From a virus: a stretch of DNA of 64,000 nucleotides. Each line of letters starts with the position of its first letter. Positions within the stretch are counted from its first letter, which is position 1. This document shows, piece by piece, positions 10,997 to 37,579 of this stretch. The notes beneath the pieces are model-generated. The model made no database searches. It was given only the letters and a program-made list of their open reading frames with translations, and was not told the DNA's origin. The translations under genes were made by a program, and so were the position numbers. The DNA lies in the IMG/VR virus record IMGVR_UViG_3300021142_002226, positions 96,001-160,000 of that record. One strand, 5' to 3'.

Positions 10997-12223
10997 ATGA
11001 GTACGTATAAAATATTAGTTGCCCCTGGCGATAATGCTGGATCTGGTAAATATAGATGTGTAGACCCACATATTAAATTACAAGAATTATTTCCGAATGA
11101 TTTTTTCGTAGAAATAAATAACGCTGTTGATTTCAGTGATTTCACATATTTGAAACAATTTAGCGCTGTGTTTATACACAGGGTTCCCCAACACAATTAT
11201 AAAGATGCTATCAACATCATTACCAATTTAAAAAAACTTGGCATAAAAGTTATTATTGATATTGATGACTATTGGCATCTTGACCCTTCTCACGGTTTGT
11301 ATGAACAAGTGAAAAGAGAGGGTATTCCACAAATATCTATAAACTGTTTAAAATTAGCTGATTTGGTTGTTGTACCAACAAGTATATTAGCTAACGAAGT
11401 TAAACAATTCAACCAGAATGTTGTTGTCTTAGCCAATGCTTTAGATCCAACAGAGGAACAATTCAAAAGTAAACCATCAGAAAGTGAGAAATTAAGAATT
11501 GGTTGGTTAGGTGGTAGCTCACATATCAAGGATTTAGAATTAATAAAAGGTATATCATCAATTGGTGAATACAATAATAAATCACAAATTGTTTTATGTG
11601 GTTTTGATACAAGAGGTAGCGTAAGGCAAATCGACCCTCAAACAGGTCAAGTACAAGAAAGACAAATGAATCCAACAGAAACTGTTTGGTTCATGTACGA
11701 GTTATTCATGACAGATAATTATCGTATGTTAGAGTCATATCCTGATTATGTAAAATTCCTTGTACAATTTAAAGAGGATAAATCTTTTGATGATTCCAAT
11801 ATGCCTTATAGAAGAGTTTGGACTAAATCCATCAACCAATATGCTAAGAACTATAATCTTTTTGATGTATCATTAGCTCCACTTGTAGATAATAAATTCA
11901 ACTTATATAAATCTCAACTTAAAGTTATTGAAGCTGGATTCCATAAGAAAGCAATTATTGCTCAAAATTACGGCCCTTATACTATCGATTTAGTAAGTGC
12001 AATAAAATCAGGTGGTGAAATAGACCCTAATGGTAATTGTTTACTTGTTGACCCATCTAAAAATCATAAACAGTGGCAAAAATATGTTAAGAAGTTAATC
12101 GATAACCCACAAATGGTTAAAGATCTTGGTGAAAAATTATATGAAACCGTAAAAGATAAATACAACCTTAATAATGTTACTAAAACAAGAGGTGAAATAT
12201 ATTTAAATTTATTAAATAAATAA
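10997..12223 (+). CDS. GT-B glycosyltransferase
   Basis: DIDDYW, RIGWLGG, FDVSLAPL...KSQLKVIEAG motifs. Confidence 0.8.
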   Translation: MSTYKILVAPGDNAGSGKYRCVDPHIKLQELFPNDFFVEINNAVDFSDFTYLKQFSAVFIHRVPQHNYKDAINIITNLKKLGIKVIIDIDDYWHLDPSHGLYEQVKREGIPQISINCLKLADLVVVPTSILANEVKQFNQNVVVLANALDPTEEQFKSKPSESEKLRIGWLGGSSHIKDLELIKGISSIGEYNNKSQIVLCGFDTRGSVRQIDPQTGQVQERQMNPTETVWFMYELFMTDNYRMLESYPDYVKFLVQFKEDKSFDDSNMPYRRVWTKSINQYAKNYNLFDVSLAPLVDNKFNLYKSQLKVIEAGFHKKAIIAQNYGPYTIDLVSAIKSGGEIDPNGNCLLVDPSKNHKQWQKYVKKLIDNPQMVKDLGEKLYETVKDKYNLNNVTKTRGEIYLNLLNK

Positions 12224-12224
12224 T

Positions 12225-12818
12225 ATGAAAAGGAAGAACGATAAAAAAACATTTTTAGCAATAGCTAACAAATATAATGTATGCTCAAAAGATTTATTGG
12301 ATTTTTTGGAATTAAATGGTTTATTTGAATGCCCAGCATCAACAACCACATCTATGCATTATGCATATGAAGGTGGTCTTGTTGATCATATAATAGAAAC
12401 AACAAAAATTGCTTTAAACCTTTTAAATGGTATACCAGAACCTTTAAGACCATCTAAAGAAAGCGTTGTAAAAGTTTGTTTTTTACATGATTTAGGTAAA
12501 TTAAATTTATACACACCAAACAAGAGTGAATGGCACAAAAAGAATCTTGGTAAAATGTATGAATTTAACGAAGATCTTGTATCTATGACAAATGGTGAAA
12601 GATCTTTATGGTATATCTATAATTGTGGAAATAACGATAAACTAACACAGGAAGAACATCAAGCAATACTTAGTTTTGATAAAAATGATAATTCAGATTT
12701 GATGGTTAAATGGCACTCTGAATCACTTTCAAGATTATTGAGACACTCTCTTGAATGGGCTATTATGCTTGAAAAAAAAGAATATAAAGATTCAACCAAA
12801 CCTAATACAAATGAGTAA
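12225..12818 (+). CDS. HD-domain phosphohydrolase (YhaM-like)
   Basis: HYAYEGGLVDH...FLHDLGK. Confidence 0.8.
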   Translation: MKRKNDKKTFLAIANKYNVCSKDLLDFLELNGLFECPASTTTSMHYAYEGGLVDHIIETTKIALNLLNGIPEPLRPSKESVVKVCFLHDLGKLNLYTPNKSEWHKKNLGKMYEFNEDLVSMTNGERSLWYIYNCGNNDKLTQEEHQAILSFDKNDNSDLMVKWHSESLSRLLRHSLEWAIMLEKKEYKDSTKPNTNE

Positions 12819-13038
12819 TTTTTTAAACGCTTTAATTGAAAAAAGACCAGAATTAGAATTGAAAGTCAAAGAGTTCGAGCACCCATTGGATAAACAAAAT
12901 AAATACTTTTCTTTGTATATTAATGGTATCGATTCAAGATTTATATTACCTGAAACTGAACTTAATATTGAAGATCCTCAAGAAATTAATGAATTAGTTA
13001 ACATAACTTTAATGTATATAAATAAAAATGGAAAATAA
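12811..13038 (+). CDS. Hypothetical protein
   Basis: Start reassigned to ATG 12811, which overlaps the upstream stop (MSNFLNAL...). Confidence 0.55.
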   Translation: MSNFLNALIEKRPELELKVKEFEHPLDKQNKYFSLYINGIDSRFILPETELNIEDPQEINELVNITLMYINKNGK

Positions 13039-13582
13039 TTTAGATGAATTTAATATCTTAGATCAAGATATCAAAAAAATACTTGAAAACGCAAATAATT
13101 TAGTCAAAGACTGGGTTTATGTTGACAATGTAATGAAACTTAAGATTAGATTTGTAAATCAGTCAACAAATCAGGATCCAGCTTACGCTAAACAAGGTGA
13201 TAGTGGTTTTGATTTGAGAGCATTCTTAAAAGAGGATGCTGTTTTGAAGCCATTTCAAAGAGCTTTAGTGCCAACTGGTTTGTATTTTCAAATCCCAGAA
13301 AACTTTGAGTTACAAGTTAGACCAAGAAGTGGTTTAGCTTTGAAAAATGGTATTACTGTATTAAATACTCCAGGTACAGTTGACTCTGGATATCGTGGTG
13401 AAATTTGTGTAATACTAATTAATCTTGGTTCTGAAGATTTCATAATCAAAAACGGTGATAGAATTGCTCAAGCTGTTATTGCCCCAGTTCAAACAAATAA
13501 TAACCTCGTATTTATGAAGTCTTCTTCGTTAGAATCAAGCGAAAGAGGTGATACAGGATTCGGAAGTAGCGGTGTCAAATAA
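13028..13582 (+). CDS. dut: dUTPase (trimeric)
   Basis: DSGFDL, RPRSGL, GTVDSGYRGE, RIAQ, RGDTGFGSSG. Confidence 0.97.
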   Translation: MENNLDEFNILDQDIKKILENANNLVKDWVYVDNVMKLKIRFVNQSTNQDPAYAKQGDSGFDLRAFLKEDAVLKPFQRALVPTGLYFQIPENFELQVRPRSGLALKNGITVLNTPGTVDSGYRGEICVILINLGSEDFIIKNGDRIAQAVIAPVQTNNNLVFMKSSSLESSERGDTGFGSSGVK

Positions 13583-13878
13583 TGGAATGTTTTAACCAAC
13601 AAATAAGAGCGTATAAAGCCGTAACTGCTGATATATACGACCAAATAATGTATAAAAGAGTATGGTCTGGAGATATGATTCAAGTTGGGGATAAAGTACT
13701 TTATGCATTTGTATTTGACCCAACAGACGATGCTCTGAAATTAATATCTGTGTTAGATAGAGAGTTGGGTTTGATTCAAAACACCTTTGATTTTGTTGCT
13801 TTCAAAAATAAAATAATACCAGTTTTAAAATTTAAAACGGATGCAAAGAATAGGCAATATACAGAGCAAGAAGATTAG
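13582..13878 (+). CDS. Hypothetical protein
   Basis: 98-aa coupled ORF. Confidence 0.55.
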   Translation: MECFNQQIRAYKAVTADIYDQIMYKRVWSGDMIQVGDKVLYAFVFDPTDDALKLISVLDRELGLIQNTFDFVAFKNKIIPVLKFKTDAKNRQYTEQED

Positions 13879-14533
13879 TGTTGTTTTTTCTACCAGAGCT
13901 TTGGATGAAGAATATATTGATCATATAAAAATGACATCTGGCCTTGGGAATAAAATTGAGATTTTACCCTTTGTGAATAATGGTGAAAAATCGTTAACAC
14001 AAATATATAACGAAGGTTTAGAAAAAGCAAAAAATGATATTGTTGTTTTTTGTCATGATGATTTAATATTTCATACAGAAAATTGGGGAATGGCAATAGG
14101 TGACCATTTTACAAGGAATCCTGGATTCGGTATAATCGGTATAGCTGGAACTAATAAGTTAGTCAATGGAAGATGGTGGGAAATAAAAGAGAACATGCAT
14201 GGTATTGTTAATCACTCAGATGGTAAAAAAATTTGGGTTAGCGAATATTCTAAACCACAAGGAATTACCCTCAAAAAAATGATCACAATTGATGGTTTAT
14301 TTTTTGCTGTACATAAAAATAGAATTAGATGTACTTTTGATGAAAATGTTAAGGGTTTCCATTTCTACGAATTAACATTTTGTATGGACAATCATATTAA
14401 TGGTGTTAAGATAGGATTATGTACAAATATACGTGTTACACACCTTTCAATTGGCGAAACTAACGACCTTTGGGAAGAAAATAAATTAGTATTTGAAGAA
14501 AAATATGGGCATTTATTACCCTTAGAAGTATGA
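13841..14533 (+). CDS. GT-A (family 2-like) glycosyltransferase
   Basis: YNEGL...VVFCHDD...GIIGIAG...IDGLFFA...FHFYE. Confidence 0.75.
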   Translation: MQRIGNIQSKKISVVFSTRALDEEYIDHIKMTSGLGNKIEILPFVNNGEKSLTQIYNEGLEKAKNDIVVFCHDDLIFHTENWGMAIGDHFTRNPGFGIIGIAGTNKLVNGRWWEIKENMHGIVNHSDGKKIWVSEYSKPQGITLKKMITIDGLFFAVHKNRIRCTFDENVKGFHFYELTFCMDNHINGVKIGLCTNIRVTHLSIGETNDLWEENKLVFEEKYGHLLPLEV

Positions 14534-15195
14534 TCAAGTCAATTAAAGAATTAAAAGATATCCATAGAGATGAAGATATTTATGTAATCGGTGCTGGAGC
14601 AAGTGTTGATTATATTAATGAATCTTTTTTTGATGGTAAGATAACAATAGGTACAAATCAAGTTTATAAGAAAATTAAATGTGATTATCTTGTTAGAAAA
14701 GAAACTAAATTTTTGAAACAAGCTTTGAATACTGGTTCAAAAGTTATTGTATCTGAATACGATAGCGGTAATCTTGATACTGGGCAATTTAAATTAAACA
14801 CCAATAAAATTGATCACGAAAACCTTTATTATTTTGAACATCTTGATAATCTACATGATAAGGTTGATACATCTGTTATTGGAACAGATAAATTAGTTGT
14901 TAGTTATTCAACGATTACATCTGCGTTACATCTTGCTGCATATATGGGTGCATTCAATATTTACCTTGTTGGTCATGATTGTGGTTCATTGAATGGTAAA
15001 ATGACATTTGATAAATATTATGATTCAATCAACGATACACCATGGCAAAATTGGAACCAATATAAATCCTGGTTAAAAATCATTGAGTCACAAACTGTTT
15101 CTGTTAGAAATAAACTTGTTGAAGTTTATGAATGTAATGTGGTGTCAATAAATCCTTTTGTTTCATTAAATTTAGAAAACAACCTTTTCATGTAA
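14530..15195 (+). CDS. Maf/DUF115-like (MptE-like) protein, candidate nonulosonate transferase
   Basis: IYVIGAGAS...IGTN...STITSALHLAAYMGAFNIYLVGHD. Confidence 0.65.
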   Translation: MIKSIKELKDIHRDEDIYVIGAGASVDYINESFFDGKITIGTNQVYKKIKCDYLVRKETKFLKQALNTGSKVIVSEYDSGNLDTGQFKLNTNKIDHENLYYFEHLDNLHDKVDTSVIGTDKLVVSYSTITSALHLAAYMGAFNIYLVGHDCGSLNGKMTFDKYYDSINDTPWQNWNQYKSWLKIIESQTVSVRNKLVEVYECNVVSINPFVSLNLENNLFM

Positions 15196-15196
15196 T

Positions 15197-15856
15197 ATGA
15201 GTTTTAAATTTATTATACCAGCCAGAAGAAATTCAAAAGGTTTACCATTTAAGAATCGTAAATTATTTGATATATTTTTAGATAAAACACCTGAAAATCT
15301 ATTAACAGGATTAATTCATTCTCATTCTTTGATTGTATCTACAGATGATGAATCAATCATTGAAAAATGTGTATCAAAGAGTATAAATTATCTTAATAGA
15401 GATAGTAATTTAGCTTTAGACACAACCTCAACTAAAGAAGTTATGATTGATTTATATAACAAGAATTACATTTTTAATGATGATATTGTTGTTATGTTAT
15501 ATTTGACATATCCTGAAAGAAATTGGGATGATATAGGAAATGCTATTGATACTTTTGTCAAAAATGGCTCAAGATCTCTTTTATGTAAAAAAGAAATCAC
15601 AAGTACCCACCCATACCTTTACATGCTTGAAATCGATAAAAATAAAGGTAAACAACTTGTTGCACACGACCTTTATCGTAGACAAGATTATCCAAAGGTA
15701 TTCGAAATTTCACACTATATTTGTATTTTTAAAGGTGGTGAATTAAAAAATTTGAATAACAATCTTTACAACGAGGATACATTTTTTTTACCAATTAACT
15801 CTGTTATAGATGTTGATACTGAAAATGATTTATTAAAATATAATGGGAATTTATGA
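15197..15856 (+). CDS. neuA: CMP-nonulosonate synthetase (acylneuraminate cytidylyltransferase)
   Basis: IIPARRNSKGLPFKN, VSTDD, L..DT, YRRQD, IDVDTEND. Confidence 0.9.
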   Translation: MSFKFIIPARRNSKGLPFKNRKLFDIFLDKTPENLLTGLIHSHSLIVSTDDESIIEKCVSKSINYLNRDSNLALDTTSTKEVMIDLYNKNYIFNDDIVVMLYLTYPERNWDDIGNAIDTFVKNGSRSLLCKKEITSTHPYLYMLEIDKNKGKQLVAHDLYRRQDYPKVFEISHYICIFKGGELKNLNNNLYNEDTFFLPINSVIDVDTENDLLKYNGNL

Positions 15857-16608
15857 AATGTATATTAGGTATAACAACATATAATAGGAGAAAATATTTA
15901 GAACATCTTTTAGATAGTTTTACACCAACTCATAACACAAATTATGAATGGGTAATCATTATCAATGATGACTGTTCAACAGATGACACAGTTAAATTCA
16001 TTGAAAACTATAATTTTCCATGTGAATATCATTTAATCAAAAATGAGAACAGAAAGGGTGTTTCATGGGGAACAAATAATATTTTTTACTTATCTCAAAA
16101 GATTGGATTTGATGTTTTATTCAGAAGTGATGATGATAATTTTTTCTTGAATAATGGTTGGGATGATCTTTATATTAATGCTATGAATAATTCTGGATTT
16201 AAACACCTAAGTTATTATAATAGTAGATGGAAAGGGGAAAATAAAAAAATAATAGAGAATGATGGTTTAATTGCCGCTTCTAATGTTATGGAATCTATGG
16301 GTAATTTCTACACAATAACACCTGAAATCTTAGAAAAAGTTGGTTACATGGATTATCAAAACATGGGTATGTGGGGTGTTGAACATATTGATTATTCATT
16401 AAGATGTTGTAGGCTCAATTATAACAATCCACAAACATTTTGGTGCCCAAAGGATTGTAAAAAATTTATTGGTATGAAAGCTGGAAATACCTATACAAGC
16501 TCAATGAGTACAATTGAGTTAGCTAATGAAAGGAGCAGAGATTATCAAAAAAGAATGATAGCAAATAATAATAATAGAATTTATATACCGAATCAGAATG
16601 CTCAATAA
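15853..16608 (+). CDS. Family 2 glycosyltransferase
   Basis: ITTYNR, DDCSTD, N-x-G-V, SDDD, WGVEHIDY. Confidence 0.85.
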   Translation: MKCILGITTYNRRKYLEHLLDSFTPTHNTNYEWVIIINDDCSTDDTVKFIENYNFPCEYHLIKNENRKGVSWGTNNIFYLSQKIGFDVLFRSDDDNFFLNNGWDDLYINAMNNSGFKHLSYYNSRWKGENKKIIENDGLIAASNVMESMGNFYTITPEILEKVGYMDYQNMGMWGVEHIDYSLRCCRLNYNNPQTFWCPKDCKKFIGMKAGNTYTSSMSTIELANERSRDYQKRMIANNNNRIYIPNQNAQ

Positions 16609-17212
16609 TTATTTTGAAAAAATATATTGTATAAACCTTGAAAAAAGAAAAGATAGGTGGAATGAGGTTAGTAAAGAATTTCAAAAAATTAATTGCAATG
16701 TTGAAAAATTTGTAGCAATTGATGGTGAAAAATTGGAACCCAGTCCATACATTTATAGAGGTGAACTTGGTTGTTACATGTCACACATGGTAATCTTAAA
16801 AGACATGATTAATAATAACTATAGTAAAATTTTAGTTTTTGAGGATGATGTTGTTTTCAACGATGATTTTAACGAAAAATTTGATTACTATTATAATCAA
16901 TTACCTAATGATTGGGATATTGTTTATATGAGTGGAAATCATACAACAAGTTTAGAAAAAATTACTGATAACATATATAAAACTAATGGTACTTTAGCTA
17001 TGCATAGTTATTTCATTAGCTTGGAAGGTGCAAAAAAATTATACAACTTATTAGTCGCTAAAAATATGACAGACCCAATAGATGTTATAGGTATAGAGTA
17101 TCAAAAAAATAATAATTGTTATACGTTTAGGCCACACCTTACGTATCAAAAAGAAGGATTTAGTGATATACAGAAAAAAATTGTTAATTACGACCACCTA
17201 TTAAAACGTTAA
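16598..17212 (+). CDS. Family 25 glycosyltransferase
   Basis: CINLEKRKDR, GELGCYMSH, VFEDD. Confidence 0.85.
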   Translation: MLNNYFEKIYCINLEKRKDRWNEVSKEFQKINCNVEKFVAIDGEKLEPSPYIYRGELGCYMSHMVILKDMINNNYSKILVFEDDVVFNDDFNEKFDYYYNQLPNDWDIVYMSGNHTTSLEKITDNIYKTNGTLAMHSYFISLEGAKKLYNLLVAKNMTDPIDVIGIEYQKNNNCYTFRPHLTYQKEGFSDIQKKIVNYDHLLKR

Positions 17213-17215
17213 TAA

Positions 17216-18058
17216 ATGAATAAAGTAAAAATTATAGCCGAAATAGGACTTAATCACAATGGGGATATAGATATCGCCAAACAACTTATAATGGTTGCTA
17301 AAGCTGCTGGTTGTGATTATGTTAAATTTCAAAAAAGAAATCCTGATGTTTGTGTACCTGAAGATCAAAAATCTAAAATAAGGCAAACACCTTGGGGTGA
17401 GATGACCTATATTGATTATAGATGGAGAGTTGAGTTTAATCAAGAACAATATCAACAAATACATAATTTTTGTCAAAGTATTGGAATTAAATGGTTCGCT
17501 TCAGTTTGGGACAAAGATTCGGTTGATTTTATACAAAAGATCAACTTGGATAATAACTATCATAGTATAATGAAAATACCATCAGCTCTTATAACCGATA
17601 CCGAATTATGCAAATACGCATCAACAAGATGTAATCAATTACTGATTTCTACAGGAATGAGCACCGAAGAAGAAATTGAAAATTGTGTACGTACTTGTAA
17701 TCCAGATGTTATAATGCATACAAATTCAACATATCCCTGTCCTGTTGAGGAATTAAACTTAAACTATATTTTATGGTTGAAGAATAAATATAGAGATAAA
17801 GAAATAGGGTATAGTGGCCATGAATATGGTTTAGTTACAACATTTGCAACAATACCTATGGGAGCTACTTGGATCGAAAGACACATAACGCTTGACCGTA
17901 ATATGTGGGGTTCAGACCAATCATCATCAATCGAGCCATCTGGGGTTTTTAAATTGGTTAAGGGGATAAGAGATATTGAAAAATCTTTGTCCTTTGCACC
18001 AAGTGAAAGATATGTATTAGGAGGAGAGTTGCAAAAAAAACAAACGCTTAGAAAATAA
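17216..18058 (+). CDS. neuB: Nonulosonate (sialic-acid-like) synthase lacking the C-terminal SAF/antifreeze-like domain
   Basis: IIAEIGLNHNG, VKFQK, LISTGM, MHTNSTYP, GYSGHE, IERHIT; only 280 aa. Confidence 0.92.
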   Translation: MNKVKIIAEIGLNHNGDIDIAKQLIMVAKAAGCDYVKFQKRNPDVCVPEDQKSKIRQTPWGEMTYIDYRWRVEFNQEQYQQIHNFCQSIGIKWFASVWDKDSVDFIQKINLDNNYHSIMKIPSALITDTELCKYASTRCNQLLISTGMSTEEEIENCVRTCNPDVIMHTNSTYPCPVEELNLNYILWLKNKYRDKEIGYSGHEYGLVTTFATIPMGATWIERHITLDRNMWGSDQSSSIEPSGVFKLVKGIRDIEKSLSFAPSERYVLGGELQKKQTLRK

Positions 18059-18064
18059 ATATAT

Positions 18065-18388
18065 ATGAAAATATTTGTAGATATTGATAATACAATTTGT
18101 CATACCGAAGGTACTGATTATAAAAATGCTAAGCCGTATTATGAAAAAATAAATATTATTAATGATCTTTTTGATCAGGGGCATGAAATAACCTATTGGA
18201 CTGCAAGAGGATCTGGGTCTGGTATTGACCATAGTTTTTTAACTATGTTTCAGCTGAAAGAATGGGGTGCAAAATATCATGAACTTAGGTTTAAGAAACC
18301 AGTTTTTGATATATTTATTGATGATAAAACAATCAATTCTATTGACAAATTAGGACTATGGGTTCAAGAACAAGAAAAAAGAAGCTAA
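18065..18388 (+). CDS. Small capless HAD phosphatase
   Basis: IFVDIDNTI (DxD), YWTARG, KP..D.FIDD. Confidence 0.8.
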   Translation: MKIFVDIDNTICHTEGTDYKNAKPYYEKINIINDLFDQGHEITYWTARGSGSGIDHSFLTMFQLKEWGAKYHELRFKKPVFDIFIDDKTINSIDKLGLWVQEQEKRS

Positions 18389-19104
18389 CGCACGAGGAAA
18401 TAAACGATGCGTATGTGGATATCGAAACATCACATAATGAAAATATCCTCAAATCAATTCACTTTAATCTAAAGGCAAAAACACAAAATCAAAAGGAATT
18501 AATCAAATTAATTCGTGAGAAAGACATTATCATTTGTTCTGGATTTCCAGGTACAGGTAAAACATATGTCGCATGTGCTATGGCTTTAGAACTATTGAAA
18601 AAAGATCCTAAATACAAGAAAATTGTAATAGTTAAGTCTGTTACACCTTTAAAAGATGAAGAGGTTGGATATCTTAAAGGAACTCTCAGGGAAAAATTGG
18701 AACCATTTATGTATTCTTTTATCCATAATTTCGAAAAAATTATTGGTAAAGATATGGTTGAAAAATTAAAAATTAATGGTTTTTTAGAAGAAATGCCATT
18801 AACTTATATGAGAGGTATCAATATTGATAACGCTATTGTTATTATAGATGAAGCCCAAAATATCAAGAAAACAAACATGAAGACTATCATGACTCGTTTG
18901 GGTGAAGATTCTAAAATGATATTCTTAGGTGATGAAGGTCAAATTGACTTGAAAAACCCACAAGAAAGTTCATTATCATTTATCATTAAAAGATTTAAAG
19001 AAAAAGATTTTTTTGGTACAATTGCTTTTGGAGAAGAAGATATTGTTAGACATCACCTCATCAAAATCATAGAGCAAGGTTTTGATGAAATAAATTATCC
19101 ATAA
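18358..19104 (+). CDS. phoH: PhoH-family ATPase
   Basis: GFPGTGKT, GYLKG, YMRG, IIDEAQN, TRLGEDSK, GD..Q.D, VRH. Confidence 0.95.
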   Translation: MGSRTRKKKLTHEEINDAYVDIETSHNENILKSIHFNLKAKTQNQKELIKLIREKDIIICSGFPGTGKTYVACAMALELLKKDPKYKKIVIVKSVTPLKDEEVGYLKGTLREKLEPFMYSFIHNFEKIIGKDMVEKLKINGFLEEMPLTYMRGINIDNAIVIIDEAQNIKKTNMKTIMTRLGEDSKMIFLGDEGQIDLKNPQESSLSFIIKRFKEKDFFGTIAFGEEDIVRHHLIKIIEQGFDEINYP

Positions 19105-19156
19105 ATAGTTTATTTTCGTACAAAGGTTTCATAAATTTATTTAAAATAATAAATTT

Positions 19157-19810
19157 ATGGTTATTGGTATTACAATAAATAATATAATTAGGGATCATAT
19201 TTCTAAGTTATGTGAAGCTTACGAAATCATTACGGAACAACAACCGATAATGCCTATAAACCCTTATGATCTTGAAAAATCATTTCCTGACAAAGCTCCA
19301 CAGGAATTCGAAACTGTTGAGTTATCGGCATCTAATATAGATAATGAGTATGAACTGACACCAATGGATGTTGAAGAAACAAATTTCAACGTAATCGAGT
19401 TTATGTATATGGACGCATCCTTTGAAGTATTTGGTAGGGCTGGTCAATTAGAAAACAATTTAATCACAAAACTTGCTGAACTACAATCTGATGATGTAGA
19501 TATTATTCTTTTAAACAAAGAATCAACAAGGTCAAAAAACGCAACTTTATTCTTTTTGTCCAAGAATAATTTCGACTTGAAACAAATAGTATTTCCTGAC
19601 AAATACGAAGATTTTTACATGTATTGTGATGTCCTTATCACAGATAATCCTAAATTGATGGATATCAAACCAAAAGACAAGATATTAATTAAGGTTGAAA
19701 ACGAATTTAATATTGATTATATATCAGATTTTACTATTATTAAAGTATCTGATATATTTGAATTAATTGAAGAAATAAAAAATAAACATAATTCATTAAA
19801 AAATAGTTAA
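19157..19810 (+). CDS. 5'-nucleotidase-like HAD-fold protein with a degenerate motif I
   Basis: MVIGITINNIIRD (canonical xIGIDIDGVLRD) and DVLITDNP. Confidence 0.45.
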   Translation: MVIGITINNIIRDHISKLCEAYEIITEQQPIMPINPYDLEKSFPDKAPQEFETVELSASNIDNEYELTPMDVEETNFNVIEFMYMDASFEVFGRAGQLENNLITKLAELQSDDVDIILLNKESTRSKNATLFFLSKNNFDLKQIVFPDKYEDFYMYCDVLITDNPKLMDIKPKDKILIKVENEFNIDYISDFTIIKVSDIFELIEEIKNKHNSLKNS

Positions 19811-19811
19811 A

Positions 19812-20873
19812 ATGGCTAAAAAACAAGAAGTTCTACAAAATATTGATTCGTCAATAGAAAAAATTAAGAACAAAGAACAAAAAATAATTTTCTTAATACC
19901 AGATACAAAAGGTAATGCGAGAGCAAGTGTTAGTGTTTTGTATAGACAAGCTATGTCTCTTAAAAATTTAGGTTATAGTGTTGCAATGCTAAACGAAAAG
20001 AAAGACTCTATAAATGCATCAACATGGTTGGGTTCTGAGTATGATACTTTGGATCATTTTTCAATTGAAGAAAATAATCTAACAATGGGGCCTCAAGACT
20101 TCTTAATAGTACCAGAAATTTTTGGTAATGTTTTTGAACAACTTGAAAAATTACCGATGGAAAAGATTTTATTTGTACAATCATTTGAATATATGTTAGA
20201 CGCATATGCACCAGGTAAAAGTTTTATTGATTTTGGTGTAACTGAATGTATGACAACAAGTGATACACTTTCTAAATTGATTACAGATGTTTTACCTTTA
20301 AATACGGTACAAGTTATACCAATTGGTATTCCTGACCTTTTTAAACCAACAGAAAATCTTACAAAACCTATTGTAGCAATACATTGTAGAGATGCGAGAA
20401 AAGCTGCTAAAATTATTAAAACTTTTTATTTGAAATACCCAATCTACAGATTCGTATCATTCAAAGATATGCATACTATGACCGAGGTTGATTTCGCTAA
20501 TAACCTTAAAGATTGTTGTTTGTCTATATGGGTTGATGATGATTCATCATTTGGAACTTTCCCAGTTGAATCAATCAAATGTAATGTTCCAGTTATAGGT
20601 AAAGTACCAAACATTATAGGTGAGTGGATGGATGATAATAATGGTATGTGGGTTTACGATGAGAATCAGATTGTTGATTTAACCTCTGCATATGTTAAAA
20701 ATTGGTTGGAAGATAATATTCCTGAAAATTTACAAAACGTATCAACAACTCTTGATGGAAAATATGGTATGGTTGAATTTGAAGAAAAAACTAAGCTGGT
20801 TTATGAATATTATTTCCAAAACAGAATTGACAAGTTGGAAAAAATAAAAGAGGATTATATGAAAACAGCTTAA
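19812..20873 (+). CDS. GT-B glycosyltransferase-like protein
   Basis: LIVPE, VIPIGI...F, SFGTFPVESIKCNVPVIG (ExxxC.P donor-binding motif). Confidence 0.7.
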   Translation: MAKKQEVLQNIDSSIEKIKNKEQKIIFLIPDTKGNARASVSVLYRQAMSLKNLGYSVAMLNEKKDSINASTWLGSEYDTLDHFSIEENNLTMGPQDFLIVPEIFGNVFEQLEKLPMEKILFVQSFEYMLDAYAPGKSFIDFGVTECMTTSDTLSKLITDVLPLNTVQVIPIGIPDLFKPTENLTKPIVAIHCRDARKAAKIIKTFYLKYPIYRFVSFKDMHTMTEVDFANNLKDCCLSIWVDDDSSFGTFPVESIKCNVPVIGKVPNIIGEWMDDNNGMWVYDENQIVDLTSAYVKNWLEDNIPENLQNVSTTLDGKYGMVEFEEKTKLVYEYYFQNRIDKLEKIKEDYMKTA

Positions 20874-20874
20874 T

Positions 20875-21576
20875 ATGGATAAATTAATAGAAATATTAAA
20901 AATTATTGGGGGTGACGATTACACAAAACCTCTACCTAATTTATTAAGTTTACCTGAAGAAACACGTTCTCAAATTTTAATAGAATTAAAAAAACTACCA
21001 CAATTTGAAGATACAAAAAATTTTATTTTTTTGGATAGTCCAATTATTATCAAAGATGGTGAAGCGTCAAGCGTACCGACTATGGTTTTAATGAGTCAAG
21101 AACAATTTGATAAAGAAAGTAGTACTCTCAAAATGGAAATGAAATGGAAAGTTATTGATGGTGACAAAGTTGAATTATATCCTTCAACAATGAAATCTGA
21201 AATTTTAATGATGAATGAAACAGTTAAAATTTATTCCATAGGTCTTACCCCAACAACATATACTCCAATTGATGCTCATGAATATGAAGATGTATTGGTT
21301 ACACCATCATTATATGACCCAACTAATTTTGAACCTTTCAGGGAAATCAGGTTGAAATTTTCACCAGAAAAACGTCAAGATATAGCCGCAAAAACAAGTA
21401 CAGAAGATGAGATCGAAAGTTTCAAAAAAGAAATGTATGAAAAATTGGACAAGGCTATAGAAATTTTACTAACTAAGGGTACAAATTATAAACAAAATAA
21501 AAACATTATTGTAAGAATATCTGATGATTCATACGCAAAAAAAACTATAAAACAAAGAGAATTTAAAACTATATAA
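20875..21576 (+). CDS. Hypothetical protein
   Basis: 233-aa ORF within the operon. Confidence 0.55.
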   Translation: MDKLIEILKIIGGDDYTKPLPNLLSLPEETRSQILIELKKLPQFEDTKNFIFLDSPIIIKDGEASSVPTMVLMSQEQFDKESSTLKMEMKWKVIDGDKVELYPSTMKSEILMMNETVKIYSIGLTPTTYTPIDAHEYEDVLVTPSLYDPTNFEPFREIRLKFSPEKRQDIAAKTSTEDEIESFKKEMYEKLDKAIEILLTKGTNYKQNKNIIVRISDDSYAKKTIKQREFKTI

Positions 21577-21577
21577 T

Positions 21578-22423
21578 ATGGCAGAAAATACTAAAACACT
21601 TGACATTACCGTAATTATACCAATACATTCGGTAGCAAATGAAAAAACTGGTGAATACCTTGATATTGCTTTGAATAGCATATCTGTTAATGAAGTAAAA
21701 CCTAAAGAAGTTTTGATTGTTAGATGCGGCTGCGGAGATGTGAGAGAATTTTTGAATGAGTTTGACCTCACCAAATATAACTTGAACGCTCGTGTAATCG
21801 AAAACATAACTGGTAAATCATTCCAGAATCAAATGAATTACGCTGTATCTCAGGTTACAACCGAATATTTCAGCTTACTTGAATTTGATGATGAGTATGC
21901 TTCGAATTGGTTCAAAAATGTTGGTAAATACATGGAGAAAAACCCTGATATCGATATGTTCCTACCTATCGTATCTGATGTTGATCAAAATAATAAATTT
22001 TTGATGATGACAAATGAAGCTGCGTGGGCATATAATTTCTCAGAAGAAATGGGTGTTATTGATAACGAAACTTTAATGAACTTCCCTAATATCAATATTG
22101 ATGGTATGGTTACAAAGAAAGAATCATATTTAGCAGCTGGTGGTATAAAACCTTCAATAAAATTAAGTTTCAATTACGAATTTCTTTTAAGATTTACAAA
22201 GAATGGTTATAAAATCATGGTTGTGCCAAAAATTGGTTACAAACATGTGAACATGAGGACAGATTCTCTGTTTTGGAATTATAAAAATGATCCAGTTGAA
22301 AAAATTTCACCAGATGAAGCGAAATTTTGGATGGAATTAGCGCAAAAAGAATATTACTACAAACAAGATAGAAATGTTATCTATGCGCCAACAACACAAG
22401 ACACAGAAGTAAGTAATGGTTAA
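21578..22423 (+). CDS. Family 2 glycosyltransferase
   Basis: ITVIIPIH, TEYFSLLEFDD, NIDG, YEFLLR. Confidence 0.8.
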   Translation: MAENTKTLDITVIIPIHSVANEKTGEYLDIALNSISVNEVKPKEVLIVRCGCGDVREFLNEFDLTKYNLNARVIENITGKSFQNQMNYAVSQVTTEYFSLLEFDDEYASNWFKNVGKYMEKNPDIDMFLPIVSDVDQNNKFLMMTNEAAWAYNFSEEMGVIDNETLMNFPNINIDGMVTKKESYLAAGGIKPSIKLSFNYEFLLRFTKNGYKIMVVPKIGYKHVNMRTDSLFWNYKNDPVEKISPDEAKFWMELAQKEYYYKQDRNVIYAPTTQDTEVSNG

Positions 22424-23123
22424 TAAAAAAAACAAGAACTATTATGATATCGACCAAGAACAGGCCGTTTTATTATTCTTAAAATCAAAATCTAATGAAG
22501 AAAGAACTAAAATCTATAGAGAACATCTCCAGGATCCAATCAATAAAATGATTGAAATTATCATCAGAAGATATAAACTGGAAAGAAAATCTGAAAATTT
22601 TCCTGATATTCATGCTGACGCTTTATCATTTTTGATGACCAAATTTGATAAATTCAAACCAGAGAGAAACAAAAAATCGTACTCATATTTTGGAACGATT
22701 TGCAGAAATTACCTAAAAGGTGAATTGATTAAAGAATATAAAAAAAATAGGTTACATAAAGATATCGAAACAGCTGAGAGTGAATTACTTGAGAGAGCTG
22801 ACCAAAAATACAGAATTGATGATGACGGATTTAACACCAGCGTTTTTCTCGAAAAATTGATGGATAAGTTAAAAGAAGAGATAAATTCTGAAAATTTGAA
22901 CGATAATGAGTTCAAAGTAGGCCATTCATTAATTAAAATTTTAGAGGATTGGGAAGAACTTTTTGCTGATGCCAGTAACAAAAGTCACACTAAATTCAAT
23001 AAAAATCTAATATTGCTATATATTAGAAATATGACTGGACTATCAACAAAAGAGATAAGAAACAGCATGAAAAGGTTCAAAACTCTTTATTTTATTTTCA
23101 AAAACGATTTTATAGAAGAGTAA
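22416..23123 (+). CDS. Sigma-factor-like protein (T4 gp55-like late sigma candidate)
   Basis: DIHADALSFLMTKFDKFKPERNKKSYSYFGTICRNYL resembles sigma region 2 / gp55 FDP...FxYFT. Confidence 0.65.
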   Translation: MVNKKNKNYYDIDQEQAVLLFLKSKSNEERTKIYREHLQDPINKMIEIIIRRYKLERKSENFPDIHADALSFLMTKFDKFKPERNKKSYSYFGTICRNYLKGELIKEYKKNRLHKDIETAESELLERADQKYRIDDDGFNTSVFLEKLMDKLKEEINSENLNDNEFKVGHSLIKILEDWEELFADASNKSHTKFNKNLILLYIRNMTGLSTKEIRNSMKRFKTLYFIFKNDFIEE

Positions 23124-34771: not shown

Positions 34772-37579
34772 ATGGCAAATTTTACAGTATTTCAAAAATT
34801 AAATAAAGTTTTAGGTAATGAATTAGAATCACCTAAATATACCATTGACCCAAATTCATTCAAGAATCTTGACGATCAGGAACTCGAAATGAAACGACTT
34901 GAGGCACAGCAGGTCATCTATTTACAGAATCAGTGGAAAAAAATTGATAACGAATTATATCAAAAAGCTGTTTATTACGAACCAACCAGAATCGCATCAT
35001 ATTATGATTACGAAGCAATGGAGTTTTGTTTGGCTGGAGAGACTAAAATAGCAACACCAAGCGGATTCATAACCATAGAAGAGTTAGCTAAAAAGGGTAG
35101 GGAGAATGAATTTATTGTTTATTCCTATGACCATAATACTAAAAAAGTTGTACCAGCATGGGCTAAAAACGCACACCATACAAGAGATGAAGTGACATAT
35201 AAGGTTATTTTTGACGATGATTCTTATATTATTGGTACTTTTGACCATAAATTAATGAAAAGAGATGGTAGTTTTTCAAAAATTTCAGAATTAAAAGAAG
35301 GGGATTCTATGATGCCTTTCTATAGAAAATCTTTTTATAATAACCAAAAATATAATTGGGTTTATACTTGTAATTCATTAGAAGGTTATAATGGTTGGGT
35401 ATCTGAACACAATTTAATTGCTGAGTGGTTCTATGAGACTAAAATTAATGAAGATGAAGAGGTTCACCATATAGATTTTAATGGTAAAAACAATTCCCCT
35501 GAAAATTTATCTATTATGAAAATATCTGAGCATAGAGCATACCATGCGAGATTAAATAATAGTAAGCTTTGGGTAAATGAGGAATATAGAGCAAAAATGC
35601 TTGAAATAAGTAAAAGAACAGATAATAAACACAAATGGAATGGTGCAAGAAGTGGTAAGAATAATCCAGCTTATTTTAAAATACCTTTTGATTTAATTAT
35701 TGAAACAGCAAAAAAAATTAAAACACTTAAAGGTACGGCGAAAGAGTTAAATATTTCTCACACAAAATTACAAAGAGAAATAATGATGGCTGGATATAAA
35801 GACTGGAAAACATTTTGTCATGCATATAGTATAGAGTTATCTAAATACTCAACAGCAACCGTTAAAGGTGAACAATATGTTCTGAATCATAAAATTAAAT
35901 CTATTGAACCATATAAAGTTATACCAGTATATGATTTGACAGTACCAGGGTATAAAAATTTTGCAACAGATACAATATTTTCACATAATACTCCAGAAAT
36001 TGCTGCTGCGCTTGATATATTTTCTGAGGAGGCAACAACACCTAATGAAAGTGGTAAAATTCTAACAGTATATTCGGAAAGTAATCGTATCAAAGACGAA
36101 TTAACAGACCTTTTTGATAATGTAATCGATATCAATTCAGTTATCACCAGCTGGGCAAGAAACCTATGCAAATATGGTGATAATTTTTTATATAACAAGG
36201 TTATTCCAGGTAAAGGTATTGTGGGTGTAACACAATTACCAAACATCGAAATCACAAGAGCTGAACCAGGTTTCTCAAAAGTTATGAGTATGGATGATTT
36301 CCAAAAAGAAAAGAATGTTAAATTCTTTTGGAAGGAAAAACAACTTGATTTCAACTCATTTGAGATATCTCACTTCAGACTCATGGGTGATGATAGACGT
36401 TTACCTTATGGTACAAGTATGCTCGAAAAAGTTAGAAGAATTTGGAAACAATTACTTTTAGCCGAAGACGCTATGCTTGTTTATCGTGTTACCAGAGCCC
36501 CAGAAAGACGTGTTTACAAAGTTTATGTAGGTAATATGGATGAAAAAGACATCGATGCTTACGTAGATAAAGTCGCTAATAACTTCAAAAGATCAAATTT
36601 GGTAAACTCATCAAACGGACAACAAGATACCAGATATAATGCTATGGCCGTGGATCAAGACTTTTTTATCCCAACCAGAGACCCTCAATTACCAATGCCA
36701 ATTGAAACATTACCAGGAGCTCAAAATCTTGGGGAAATAGCTGATATTCAATACATTCAAAATAAAATGTTGGCTGCTCTAAGAATCCCTAAAACGTTCT
36801 TAGGTTTTGATCAAGCTGTTGGTGACGGTAAAAACCTATCCATTCTTGATATACGTTTTGCAAGAGCTGTTTATAGATTACAAAGATCTATAATACAAGA
36901 GTTAAATAAAATGGCAATCATCCACCTTTATGTTAAAGGTTATGAGGATGATTTACATAATTTTACTCTATCTTTATCTAATCCTTCCACCCAAGCAGAC
37001 ATGCTTAAAATCACTAACTGGCAAGCTAAAATACAACTTTACAAAGACGCTGTTACAGATCTTGGTAATGGTTTTGGGCCTGTATCACAAACTTGGGCTA
37101 AGAAAGAAATTCTTGGATTCAGTGATGATGAAATTAAAATTGATGTTCAAAGACAAGTTGTGGAAAAAGCAGCCTCTGAAGAACTTAAAATGTTGGGTGA
37201 AACAATCAAACAAACAGGTATGTTTAGAGATTTGTATAAATTATACAAGATTGATCCTAACAATATGGGACAAGCGCCTGCTGAAAACCAACAACAAGAA
37301 ACTCCTCCAGGCGGCGGAACAGGTGGTGGTGTAGCTCAAGATTTCACAGCACCACTCGAAGGTGGAACAACCCCTGAAATTGGTGGAACGGAAACAACAC
37401 CAGAAGCTGGTGCTGCACCAGAGGCTGGCACGGCTGAAACCCCAATGCCAGGTACGCCAGGTGAAGAAACACAATTACAAGAAAATATGGTAAAAAGGAT
37501 GTTATTGAATAGAAGACAGTCAATAAGTGAAAATATTTCCAAAACTTTGGATGATATTGACAAAATGTTAAACGAATAA
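34772..37579 (+). CDS. gp20: Portal protein (T4 gp20-like) with an intein
   Basis: YEAMEF|intein|TPEIAAALD, RLPYGTSMLE, YRVTRAPERRVY, DFFIP, L..ALRIPK. Confidence 0.93.
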   Translation: MANFTVFQKLNKVLGNELESPKYTIDPNSFKNLDDQELEMKRLEAQQVIYLQNQWKKIDNELYQKAVYYEPTRIASYYDYEAMEFCLAGETKIATPSGFITIEELAKKGRENEFIVYSYDHNTKKVVPAWAKNAHHTRDEVTYKVIFDDDSYIIGTFDHKLMKRDGSFSKISELKEGDSMMPFYRKSFYNNQKYNWVYTCNSLEGYNGWVSEHNLIAEWFYETKINEDEEVHHIDFNGKNNSPENLSIMKISEHRAYHARLNNSKLWVNEEYRAKMLEISKRTDNKHKWNGARSGKNNPAYFKIPFDLIIETAKKIKTLKGTAKELNISHTKLQREIMMAGYKDWKTFCHAYSIELSKYSTATVKGEQYVLNHKIKSIEPYKVIPVYDLTVPGYKNFATDTIFSHNTPEIAAALDIFSEEATTPNESGKILTVYSESNRIKDELTDLFDNVIDINSVITSWARNLCKYGDNFLYNKVIPGKGIVGVTQLPNIEITRAEPGFSKVMSMDDFQKEKNVKFFWKEKQLDFNSFEISHFRLMGDDRRLPYGTSMLEKVRRIWKQLLLAEDAMLVYRVTRAPERRVYKVYVGNMDEKDIDAYVDKVANNFKRSNLVNSSNGQQDTRYNAMAVDQDFFIPTRDPQLPMPIETLPGAQNLGEIADIQYIQNKMLAALRIPKTFLGFDQAVGDGKNLSILDIRFARAVYRLQRSIIQELNKMAIIHLYVKGYEDDLHNFTLSLSNPSTQADMLKITNWQAKIQLYKDAVTDLGNGFGPVSQTWAKKEILGFSDDEIKIDVQRQVVEKAASEELKMLGETIKQTGMFRDLYKLYKIDPNNMGQAPAENQQQETPPGGGTGGGVAQDFTAPLEGGTTPEIGGTETTPEAGAAPEAGTAETPMPGTPGEETQLQENMVKRMLLNRRQSISENISKTLDDIDKMLNE
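35027..35989 (+). mobile_element. Contiguous intein (321 aa) with an HNH endonuclease
   Basis: CLAGET...TFDH...VHHIDFNGKNNSPENL...VYDLTV...FSHN|T. Confidence 0.92.

What the first reader, a model, noticed from the sequence alone, without database searches (positions are those of the whole stretch)
10997..22423. Phage-encoded nonulosonic-acid (sialic-acid-like) glycosylation pathway
Seen: one operon-like run with NeuB synthase, NeuA CMP-synthetase, a Maf/DUF115-like protein, a HAD phosphatase directly after neuB, and six glycosyltransferases (GT-A and GT-B). No NeuC epimerase is in the window, and NeuB lacks the SAF domain. Known: Maf proteins transfer CMP-activated pseudaminic or legionaminic acid to flagellin. 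Bacteroides thetaiotaomicron makes KDN from mannose-6-P via a 9-phosphate synthase, a HAD phosphatase and a CMP-synthetase. Inference: the phage makes a nonulosonate, possibly by the 9-phosphate/KDN route, to glycosylate its virion or remodel the host surface.
Basis: partly seen in the sequence, partly recalled or inferred. Interest (0 to 1): 0.75.

Follow-up and report, generated by a model that had tools for sequence, protein, structure and literature searches.

The report
Phage sialic-acid-like sugar gene island
A large uncultured T4-like phage carries soluble enzymes that should make, activate and attach a nine-carbon sialic-acid-like sugar (probably Kdn, made through a phosphorylated intermediate), a capacity I found in no paper on phages; the sugar and its target are untested.

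Summary
Window 10997-22423 encodes a NeuB-family synthase without a SAF domain, a 107-aa HAD phosphatase directly after it, and a CMP-nonulosonate synthetase. It also encodes a DUF115 protein with a sialyltransferase-like fold and six glycosyltransferases (two GT-B, four GT-A). HD, dUTPase and PhoH genes are interspersed. The 190-kb virus record has no NeuC, no Pse/Leg precursor enzymes and no polytopic membrane protein.

NeuB, HAD and the CMP-synthetase form a conserved core. In 79 related viral loci the HAD is present in 70, always on the same strand, and the synthetase in 62. They sit in a hypervariable sugar island upstream of a gp55-like late sigma factor.

The 9-phosphate route is well supported. 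The sister NeuB clade in bacteria is fused to YrbI-type phosphatases, whose best solved match is 3E8M/3E81 (which I recall as Bacteroides KDN-9-P phosphatase). The small HAD is also found fused to NeuB and to CMP-synthetase.

- **Caveat:** the small HAD family also occurs without NeuB.
- **Open:** Kdn is the most likely sugar but is unproven. The acceptor (virion protein or host envelope) is unknown.
- **Prior notes:** this scan noted similar cassettes on at least 23 other genomes. I found no published description.

The parts
10997..12223 (+). GT-B type glycosyltransferase (408 aa), first gene of the island
   Evidence: phrog_7162 'glycosyltransferase' 5.3e-44; homologues in 24 related loci
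12225..13582 (+). Interspersed genes that are not part of the sugar pathway: weak HD-domain protein, a small ORF and dUTPase
   Evidence: HD 0.0065, below cut-off; dUTPase 1e-27
13841..14533 (+). GT-A glycosyltransferase (Glyco_tranf_2_5)
   Evidence: PF13712 1.5e-25
14530..15195 (+). DUF115/MptE-like protein with a GT42-sialyltransferase-like fold; candidate CMP-nonulosonate transferase
   Evidence: PF01973 in 15 of 15 homologues, best 1.8e-08. phrog_4603 'alpha-2,3-sialyltransferase' 5.7e-06. Model pLDDT 81. VIA Z 12.9 to MptE HPPK, 10.7 to CstI, 10.3 to CstII. DUF115+NeuB fusion proteins exist.
15197..15856 (+). CMP-nonulosonate synthetase (NeuA/PseF-like cytidylyltransferase)
   Evidence: PF02348 1.3e-08, above cut-off. 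TIGR03584 PseF 2.2e-11. PDB CMP-Neu5Ac synthetases 6ifd 5.8e-09 and 1eyr 2.6e-08. Present in 62 of 79 NeuB loci.
15853..16608 (+). GT2 glycosyltransferase (GT-A)
   Evidence: PF00535 6.7e-12
16598..17212 (+). GT25 glycosyltransferase (LPS galactosyltransferase-like, GT-A)
   Evidence: PF01755 1.3e-24
17216..18058 (+). SAF-less NeuB-family nonulosonate(-9-phosphate) synthase, 280 aa, with a conserved basic C-terminal tail
   Evidence: PF03102 5.5e-63. TIGR03569 204 bits against PseI 154 bits. Residues E9, K37, Q39, H202, E221, H223 and D234 are invariant in 19 sequences. Sister clade fused to YrbI phosphatases.
18065..18388 (+). Small capless HAD phosphatase; candidate nonulosonate-9-phosphate phosphatase
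   Evidence: Motifs DxDxT, T46, K78 and D82..D87 invariant. PDB 9iqw 3.8e-21, 1xpj, 2obb. Present in 70 of 79 NeuB loci, within 50 nt in 32. Fused to NeuB (P0137) and to CMP-synthetase (P0131).
18358..19104 (+). PhoH, interspersed and not part of the pathway
   Evidence: PF02562 6.4e-57
19812..20873 (+). GT-B glycosyltransferase (GT4-like), 353 aa
   Evidence: Profile A2 hits 8xsg glucosyltransferase at 1.1e-12 and GT4 structures; conserved in 23 loci
21578..22423 (+). GT2 glycosyltransferase (GT-A)
   Evidence: PF00535 7.2e-09; conserved in 23 loci
22416..23123 (+). gp55-like late sigma factor; marks the downstream border of the island
   Evidence: TIGR02937 sigma-70 2.1e-04. Weak SigA profile hits. 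Found downstream of NeuB in 39 loci, about 5.6 kb by the median of the 35-locus cluster.

Best explanation
The island is a soluble, cytoplasmic module that makes and transfers a CMP-activated nonulosonic acid.

1. NeuB condenses PEP with a phosphorylated host hexose to give a nonulosonate-9-phosphate. The hexose is most likely mannose-6-phosphate, which would give Kdn-9-P.
2. The adjacent small HAD removes the phosphate.
3. The cytidylyltransferase makes the CMP-sugar.
4. The DUF115 protein, which has a GT42-like fold, transfers it onto a glycan built by the neighbouring GT-A and GT-B enzymes.

**Shown:** family membership, intact catalytic motifs, conserved linkage and gene fusions.

**Inferred:** the phosphorylated substrate (strong comparative support), Kdn as the product (moderate), DUF115 as the transferase (moderate), and the acceptor. 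My guess for the acceptor is a phage structural protein glycosylated in the cytoplasm, about 45%, against about 35% for a host envelope glycan.
For: - **Families and motifs:**
- **Linkage in 79 viral NeuB loci:** the HAD is present in 70, always on the same strand, and the CMP-synthetase in 62.
- **Fusions of the small HAD:** small HAD+NeuB and small HAD+CMP-synthetase.
- **Fusions of phage-type NeuB:** bacterial proteins join YrbI phosphatase+NeuB, or CMP-synthetase+YrbI phosphatase+NeuB, at 48-52% identity, aligned to the last residue.
- **Tree:** the YrbI-fused clade is sister to the viral-type clade, SH support 0.94, 0.91 and 0.996.
- **Fused phosphatase:** its best solved match is 3e81/3e8m at 8e-31, which I recall as BT1713 KDN-9-P phosphatase.
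- **No other precursor route:** the 190-kb record has no NeuC, SDR dehydratase or DegT aminotransferase. The epimerases in relatives are WecB-type, not NeuC. No NanE or sugar kinase appears among the common neighbours.
- **Kdn lead:** SAF-less NeuB is typical of Streptomyces (PMC8208679), whose main wall polymer contains Kdn (PMC11481543, PMC7831098).
- **Transferase lead:** DUF115 has a CstI/CstII-like fold, DUF115+NeuB fusions exist, and sister phages carry GT29 sialyltransferase-like genes in the same slot.
- **Export:** no protein in the record has four or more predicted TM segments.
Against: - Nothing has been assayed.
- The small HAD family is not specific to NeuB. HAD+cupin pairs occur in 78 of 80 viral loci with no NeuB within 6 kb. 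A 98%-complete 177-kb phage has the pair but no NeuB, CMP-synthetase or KdsA. The HAD tree does not separate NeuB-linked from cupin-linked copies.
- The HAD is not of the BT1713/YrbI family.
- NeuB and the CMP-synthetase score below every NCBIfam equivalog cut-off.
- I could not fetch BT1714 or other characterised Kdn-9-P synthases, so there is no direct comparison.
- The DUF115 model is structurally closest to a pterin pyrophosphokinase, Z 12.9.
- The record is only 64% complete, so precursor genes could lie in the missing part.
- No acceptor evidence of any kind was found.
Confidence: 0.55

Rival explanations
1. Same 9-phosphate chemistry, but the substrate is ManNAc-6-phosphate. The product is then Neu5Ac, by the animal-type NANS/NANP route, rather than Kdn.
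For: NCBIfam's best model is NeuB_NnaB. The CMP-synthetase is closest to CMP-Neu5Ac synthetases in the PDB. Animal NANS uses ManNAc-6-P followed by a HAD phosphatase (PMC8208679).
Against: No route to ManNAc-6-P is encoded in the record or among the common neighbours of 79 loci: no NeuC, kinase or NanE. ManNAc-6-P is not a general bacterial metabolite (my knowledge). The SAF domain, which carries the Arg that contacts ManNAc in the Neisseria enzyme, is missing (PMC8208679).
Confidence: 0.2
2. NeuB uses an unphosphorylated sugar supplied by the host (ManNAc, or a Leg/Pse precursor). The small HAD serves a different sugar-phosphate step of the island.
For: The HAD family occurs without NeuB, paired or fused with a cupin, and intermixes with NeuB-linked copies in the tree. 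It is also fused to PF01467 nucleotidyltransferases. The CMP-synthetase's best NCBIfam model is PseF.
Against: The HAD is fused directly to NeuB and to CMP-synthetase. It sits within 50 nt of NeuB in 32 loci. The sister NeuB clade is fused to an unrelated phosphatase family. No Pse/Leg precursor enzymes are present. The PseI model scores lower than the NeuB model.
Confidence: 0.15
3. The pathway is as in the best explanation, but the glycan is added to host envelope intermediates (LPS core, O-antigen or capsule). This would change the infected cell's surface and block superinfection. The virion is not the target.
For: GT25 and GT2 families are typical of LPS synthesis. This role was proposed for glycosyltransferase islands of pelagimyophages and cyanomyophages (PMC7029224). 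The island lies among replication-module genes, not structural genes.
Against: The 190 kb encodes no flippase, polymerase, ligase or initiating transferase, and no protein with four or more TM segments, so export would depend wholly on the host. All the enzymes are soluble. Virus-encoded cytoplasmic glycosylation of virions is established for giant viruses (PMC9614988) and, from my knowledge, for mycobacteriophages.
Confidence: 0.35
4. The DUF115 protein is not a glycosyltransferase but a pyrophosphokinase-like or regulatory protein. Another GT of the island would transfer the CMP-sugar.
For: The best structural match is M. jannaschii MptE HPPK, Z 12.9. SteA (Z 10.2) and thiamin pyrophosphokinases also match. 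PF01973 is named after MptE.
Against: It abuts the CMP-synthetase gene (4-base overlap upstream, 1-base gap downstream). It co-occurs with NeuB in 22 loci and is fused to NeuB in P0147-P0149 and others. Sister phages carry GT29 in the same slot. CstI aligns over 187 residues, against 155 for MptE.
Confidence: 0.2

Closest known systems
CMP-Kdn pathway of Bacteroides thetaiotaomicron (BT1714 synthase, BT1713 phosphatase, BT1715 synthetase) and Prymnesium parvum (PMC6200933)
   Same: The three-step logic is the same: a NeuB-family synthase, a HAD phosphatase and a CMP-synthetase, with no NeuC. The sister clade of the phage NeuB is fused to phosphatases whose best PDB match is 3e81/3e8m.
   Different: The phage phosphatase is a 107-aa EcbF/BcbF-like HAD, not YrbI-type. 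Orthology of the synthase to BT1714 was not tested. The carrier is a virus, and transferases are built into the same island.
Predicted Kdo pathway cluster of Cafeteria roenbergensis virus and Fadolivirus (PMC9614988)
   Same: A virus-encoded ulosonic-acid pathway (PEP-condensing synthase, phosphatase, CMP-transferase) lies beside glycosyltransferases and methyltransferases. It too is predicted only in silico.
   Different: That pathway makes an eight-carbon Kdo through a KdsA-type synthase, in eukaryotic giant viruses. Here a nine-carbon NeuB-type synthase is in a tailed phage, and no KdsA is present.
Campylobacter GT42 sialyltransferases CstI/CstII and Maf (DUF115) flagellin nonulosonate transferases
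   Same: The fold is shared: Z 10.3-10.7 over 178-187 residues. The gene lies next to a CMP-nonulosonate pathway.
   Different: Sequence similarity is marginal: PF06002 hits 1 of 15 homologues, and PF01973 is below cut-off for the window protein. It is a single 221-aa domain without the flanking domains of Maf proteins (Maf size from my knowledge). No flagellin is in the context.
Actinomycete CMP-synthetase+YrbI phosphatase+NeuB fusion proteins (Nonomuraea, Streptosporangium, Isoptericola) and Kdn teichulosonic acids of Streptomyces
   Same: The SAF-less NeuB type is the same, including the C-terminal tail, at 48-52% identity. The three activities are the same.
   Different: They form one polypeptide with a YrbI-type phosphatase. 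They are cellular, cell-wall polymer context is only known for Streptomyces (PMC11481543), and the fusion proteins are uncharacterised as far as I could find.

Membership tests
NeuB / nonulosonate synthase family (PF03102) | NeuB TIM-barrel domain above Pfam's gathering score | tested here: met
   213.1 bits against a cut-off of 22.1
NeuB / nonulosonate synthase family (PF03102) | Catalytic and metal-binding residues (Neisseria E25, K53, Q55, H215, E234, H236, D247) | tested here: met
   E9, K37, Q39, H202, E221, H223 and D234 are invariant in 19 viral sequences. The mapping to Neisseria numbering is by offset from the PDB alignments and PMC8208679.
NeuB / nonulosonate synthase family (PF03102) | C-terminal SAF (antifreeze-like) domain with the substrate-contacting Arg314 | tested here: not met
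   The protein is 280 aa and ends in a conserved basic tail (R265, K274, R279) instead of a SAF domain. About 30% of NeuB-family sequences lack SAF (PMC8208679).
NCBIfam equivalogs NeuB_NnaB (TIGR03569) and PseI (TIGR03586) | Score above the curated cut-off | tested here: not met
   203.9 against 399.65, and 154.4 against 340.25
Bacteroides-type CMP-Kdn pathway | Synthase, phosphatase and CMP-synthetase genes linked, with no NeuC | tested here: met
Bacteroides-type CMP-Kdn pathway | Phosphatase of the YrbI/KdsC C0 HAD family (BT1713) | tested here: not met
   Best families are TIGR01689 EcbF-BcbF and BT0820. The profile hits only 9iqw, 1xpj and 2obb in the PDB, with no YrbI entries.
Bacteroides-type CMP-Kdn pathway | Synthase uses mannose-6-phosphate; synthetase prefers Kdn | not testable with these tools
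   Needs enzyme assays. The BT1714 sequence could not be fetched for a tree.
Canonical bacterial Neu5Ac pathway (NeuC-NeuB-NeuA) | Hydrolysing UDP-GlcNAc 2-epimerase NeuC | tested here: not met
   No PF02350 match in the 190-kb record. Epimerases in 9 related loci are WecB-type: 310 bits for wecB against 57 for NeuC. The record is 64% complete.
Pseudaminic / legionaminic acid pathways | 4,6-dehydratase (PseB/LegB) and aminotransferase (PseC/LegC) | tested here: not met
   No PF01370 or PF01041 match in the record
HAD superfamily phosphatases | Motifs I-IV (DxDxT, S/T, K, DD) | tested here: met
   D6, D8, T10, T46, K78, D82 and D87 are invariant in 18 sequences
CMP-nonulosonate/Kdo cytidylyltransferases (PF02348) | CTP_transf_3 domain above cut-off | tested here: met
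   35.4 bits against 22.6. The PseF equivalog cut-off is not reached: 43.9 against 205.7.
Maf (motility accessory factor) nonulosonate transferases | DUF115/MptE-like domain | tested here: inconclusive
   PF01973 scores 22.8 bits for the window protein, below the cut-off of 34.6. All 15 homologues match at E up to 0.01, best 1.8e-08.
Maf (motility accessory factor) nonulosonate transferases | Large multidomain protein acting on flagellin | tested here: not met
   A single-domain protein of 221 aa, in a phage with no flagellin context. Maf size is from my knowledge.
GT42 sialyltransferases (CstI/CstII) | GT42 fold | tested here: met
   Foldseek top hit CstII at 5.9e-05. VIA Z 10.7 (CstI, 187 aligned, rmsd 4.2) and Z 10.3 (CstII, 178 aligned, rmsd 4.4). 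MptE HPPK scores higher, Z 12.9.
GT42 sialyltransferases (CstI/CstII) | Sequence family PF06002 and the catalytic His | tested here: inconclusive
   PF06002 matches 1 of 15 homologues at 5.2e-05. An invariant GHD motif (H149, D150) exists, but its equivalence to the CstII catalytic His was not tested.

The most novel reading that the evidence does not exclude
Abundant aquatic T4-like phages coat their own particles with Kdn-type sialic acid made during infection. They would use a previously unrecognised minimal HAD as Kdn-9-phosphate phosphatase and a minimal DUF115 enzyme as a new class of soluble nonulosonate transferase. Sister phages swap the transferase and tailoring genes, which would vary the virion's sugar coat.
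Probability: 0.25. Interest if true: 0.85.

Novelty: new variant of a known kind. Interest (0 to 1): 0.64.

Why it matters
Sialic-acid-like sugars are known as surface caps of animals, some bacteria and some algae. Among viruses, the giant-virus glycan review I searched names no sialic or nonulosonic acid at all; the closest case is a predicted Kdo pathway.

- **Scale:** a self-contained nonulosonate module in a widespread lineage of uncultured T4-like phages would add a new kind of auxiliary metabolism. I found 80+ viral loci and thousands of close proteins in metagenomes.
- **Biology:** it raises the question whether phage particles or infected cells carry acidic sugar caps that affect adsorption, grazing, defence or superinfection.
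- **Enzymology:** it points to two compact uncharacterised enzymes, a 107-aa HAD and a 221-aa DUF115 protein. It also gives a comparative argument that the SAF-less NeuB clade makes 9-phosphorylated products.

Tried and rejected
I obtained context through the search for related loci instead.
- **Near DNA search in the phage collection:** no match. The protein search found only two uncultured viruses at 47% identity.
- **PDB sequence search for DUF115:** nothing, with either the single sequence or the profile.
- **HAD-cupin lead:** I expected the fusion labelled 'mannose-6-phosphate isomerase-like' to tie the HAD to Man-6-P. The cupin match to PF01050 is below cut-off, and the pair mostly occurs without NeuB. 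I therefore count it as a caveat, not as support. The record's own cupin is a pirin.
- **DNA glycosylation:** no sign of the T4-type hydroxymethyl-cytosine route. The thymidylate-synthase homologue is a true ThyA.
- **NeuC in relatives:** rejected; those genes are WecB-type.
- **Promoter and terminator scans, and the T4 late-promoter motif:** nothing above chance, so I make no claim about timing.
- **Atlas search of ORF 20875-21576:** nothing usable.
- **Literature:** ten searches found no paper on a phage-encoded nonulosonate pathway. This is not proof that none exists.
- **Reference enzymes:** I could not obtain BT1714, human NANS or P. parvum synthase sequences by reference, so no tree includes characterised enzymes.

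Full report
**What the window is.** The window is bases 96001-160000 of a 190,177-base IMG/VR virus record that CheckV rates 64% complete. GC is about 30%. DNA polymerase, a portal with an HNH insert, a major head protein and a ClpC/Lon-like ATPase lie in the window. A gene just downstream of the finding (22416-23123) is a gp55-like late sigma factor. This is a large T4-like tailed phage.

**Check of the observation.**
- NeuB (17216-18058) has a full NeuB domain at 5.5e-63 and stops at 280 aa, without a SAF domain.
- The next ORF (18065-18388, 107 aa) starts MKIFVDIDNT. It is a capless HAD, and all four motifs are invariant across 18 homologues.
- ORF 15197-15856 is a CTP_transf_3 cytidylyltransferase. 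Its nearest solved relatives are CMP-Neu5Ac synthetases.
- ORF 14530-15195 is DUF115-like.
- Six glycosyltransferases are real: GT-B at 10997 and 19812, and GT-A at 13841, 15853, 16598 and 21578.
- HD, dUTPase, PhoH and three unassigned ORFs are interspersed, so the run is an island inside the replication module and not a pure operon.

**What is missing.** The whole record lacks NeuC, SDR 4,6-dehydratases and DegT aminotransferases. It also lacks Kdo-8-P synthase. A hydropathy scan of 195 ORFs finds no protein with four or more predicted TM segments. That means no flippase, polymerase, ligase or lipid-carrier initiating transferase. The thymidylate-synthase homologue is a genuine ThyA, so nothing points to the T4-type hydroxymethyl-cytosine route to DNA sugar modification.

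**Comparative anatomy.**
- A scan of IMG/VR with NeuB returned 80 loci at 49-100% identity. The protein database holds more than 8000 relatives, and the best 120 are all 269-299 aa.
- Among 79 loci with NeuB, the small HAD is present in 70. It is always on the same strand, and in 32 loci it lies within 50 nt of NeuB. The CMP-synthetase is present in 62 and DUF115 in 22.
- About 25 close relatives are syntenic from the first GT-B to gp55.
- Around the conserved triad the content varies between sister phages. It includes GT29 sialyltransferase-like genes, GDP-mannose 4,6-dehydratase, aminotransferases, WecB-type epimerases, UDP-sugar dehydrogenases, methyltransferases, dioxygenases, a pyruvyl transferase, and GT4, GT8 and GT10 enzymes.
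- The window's version carries GT2 and GT25 between the synthetase and NeuB, where relatives carry GT29-like genes.
- The island is therefore a hypervariable glycan locus with a fixed nonulosonate core.

**The route.** The strongest new evidence comes from fusion proteins.
- The small HAD occurs fused N-terminally to NeuB (P0137) and to a CMP-synthetase (P0131). Both fusions were checked residue by residue.
- Independently, bacterial proteins of about 495 aa and 680-720 aa carry the phage-type NeuB as their C-terminal domain. Identity is 48-52%, and the alignment runs to the last residue, including the basic tail that replaces SAF.
- In those proteins NeuB sits behind a YrbI-type HAD phosphatase, with or without a CMP-synthetase in front. 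They come from Nonomuraea, Streptosporangium, Isoptericola and related genera.
- In a tree the YrbI-fused clade is sister to the viral-type clade. SH-like supports are 0.94, 0.91 and 0.996.
- The fused phosphatase's best solved match is 3e81/3e8m at 8e-31. From memory these are the Bacteroides BT1713 Kdn-9-P phosphatase entries. KdsC entries score almost as well.
- Two unrelated HAD subfamilies recruited to one NeuB clade is hard to explain unless the synthase releases a phosphorylated product.
- No route to ManNAc-6-P appears anywhere in these loci, whereas mannose-6-phosphate is a common metabolite. SAF-less NeuB is typical of Streptomyces (PMC8208679), whose main wall polymer contains Kdn (PMC11481543, PMC7831098). 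Kdn is therefore the most likely product, but this is inference.

**A caveat I did not expect.** The small HAD family is not dedicated to NeuB.
- A HAD-cupin fusion led me to 80 viral loci in which HAD and cupin are fused or adjacent. In 78 of them NeuB is not within 6 kb.
- One 177-kb phage rated 98% complete has the pair but no NeuB, CMP-synthetase or KdsA.
- NeuB-linked and cupin-linked HADs intermix in a tree.
- By sequence the HAD belongs with EcbF/BcbF 'capsule biosynthesis phosphatases', 9iqw, 1xpj and BT0820, not with BT1713.
- It may be a broadly used sugar-phosphate phosphatase that the nonulosonate module borrows.

**The transferase.**
- The DUF115 protein gave a fair model: pLDDT 81 and pTM 0.83.
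- Foldseek ranks CstII first.
- By VIA-align the best matches are MptE pterin pyrophosphokinase (Z 12.9, 155 residues), CstI (Z 10.7, 187 residues), CstII (Z 10.3), SteA, and then animal GT29 enzymes at Z about 8.5.
- Fold alone cannot decide its function.
- Three context facts favour a CMP-nonulosonate transferase. The gene abuts the synthetase. DUF115+NeuB fusion proteins exist at 61-62% NeuB identity. GT29-like genes fill the equivalent slot in sister phages.
- It is a bare 221-aa domain, so it is not a Maf protein in the usual sense.

**Target.** I found no evidence that identifies the acceptor. All the enzymes are soluble and no export genes are present. This fits cytoplasmic glycosylation of phage proteins, as in giant viruses (PMC9614988). 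It fits equally well with action on host lipid-linked intermediates that the host then exports, as proposed for pelagimyophage islands (PMC7029224). I lean slightly to the virion.

**Origin and spread.** The nearest 'cellular' hits, at 54-65% identity, sit in MAGs of unrelated phyla: Planctomycetota, SAR202, Woesearchaeota and Saprospiraceae. They are probably mis-binned viral contigs. Clearer cellular relatives start near 45% identity, and some Bacteroidota and Chloroflexota MAGs carry the NeuB and small HAD pair too.

**Novelty.** Ten literature searches found no description of a phage nonulosonate pathway. The giant-virus glycan review mentions none, and its closest case is the predicted Kdo cluster of CroV. 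Earlier notes of this scan describe similar cassettes, mostly with GT29, on at least 23 other genomes. These are unchecked AI notes that agree with my reading. This window adds four things:
- the DUF115 variant of the cassette;
- the phosphatase-fusion argument for the 9-phosphate route;
- the finding that the small HAD is not NeuB-specific;
- the absence of export machinery.

Noticed in passing
L130-L209; G003 (record of L158): A small HAD plus a small cupin (labelled 'mannose-6-phosphate isomerase-like') are fused or adjacent in many viral contigs, including giant-virus MAGs. NeuB is usually absent. One 98%-complete 177-kb phage has the pair but no NeuB, CMP-synthetase or KdsA. The function of the pair is unknown.
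   Followed up: partly
window 19157-19810: A conserved 217-aa protein, present in 23 loci, lies between PhoH and the GT-B. Its N-terminus (M.IGITINNILRD) resembles the DxDGV motif of HAD 5'-nucleotidases, but the aspartates are replaced in most members. It has no family match.
   Followed up: partly
L003:4097-5248, L005:7025-7558 and 24 further loci: Sister phages carry short soluble GT29 (animal-type sialyltransferase) homologues between the CMP-synthetase and NeuB, where this window has GT2 and GT25. GT29+NeuB and GT29+HAD fusion proteins also exist (P0154, P0128).
   Followed up: partly
window 51043-52251 (-): The thymidylate synthase ORF is 402 aa, about 100 aa longer than usual. The family match falls in separate pieces, which suggests an insertion.
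   Followed up: no
window 34772-37579: The portal protein ORF (935 aa) contains an HNH endonuclease-like segment at residues about 180-380, ahead of the portal domain.
   Followed up: no
L082-L094 (genome contigs): The closest 'cellular' NeuB hits (54-65% identity) are in MAGs of unrelated phyla (Planctomycetota, SAR202, Woesearchaeota, Saprospiraceae, Magnetovibrio). These are probably viral contigs binned into MAGs.
   Followed up: no
P0152 (Amoebophrya sp. A25, 567 aa): A protein from a parasitic dinoflagellate genome carries a phage-type NeuB segment at 60% identity over 68% of the query. This could be gene transfer or contamination.
   Followed up: no
L053:16707-17867 and 3 further loci: A collagen-like repeat protein lies next to the sugar island in some relatives. 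It may be a virion fibre and hence a candidate acceptor.
   Followed up: no
window 20875-21576: A 233-aa ORF inside the island is found only here and in L015. It has no family, Atlas or fold lead.
   Followed up: partly
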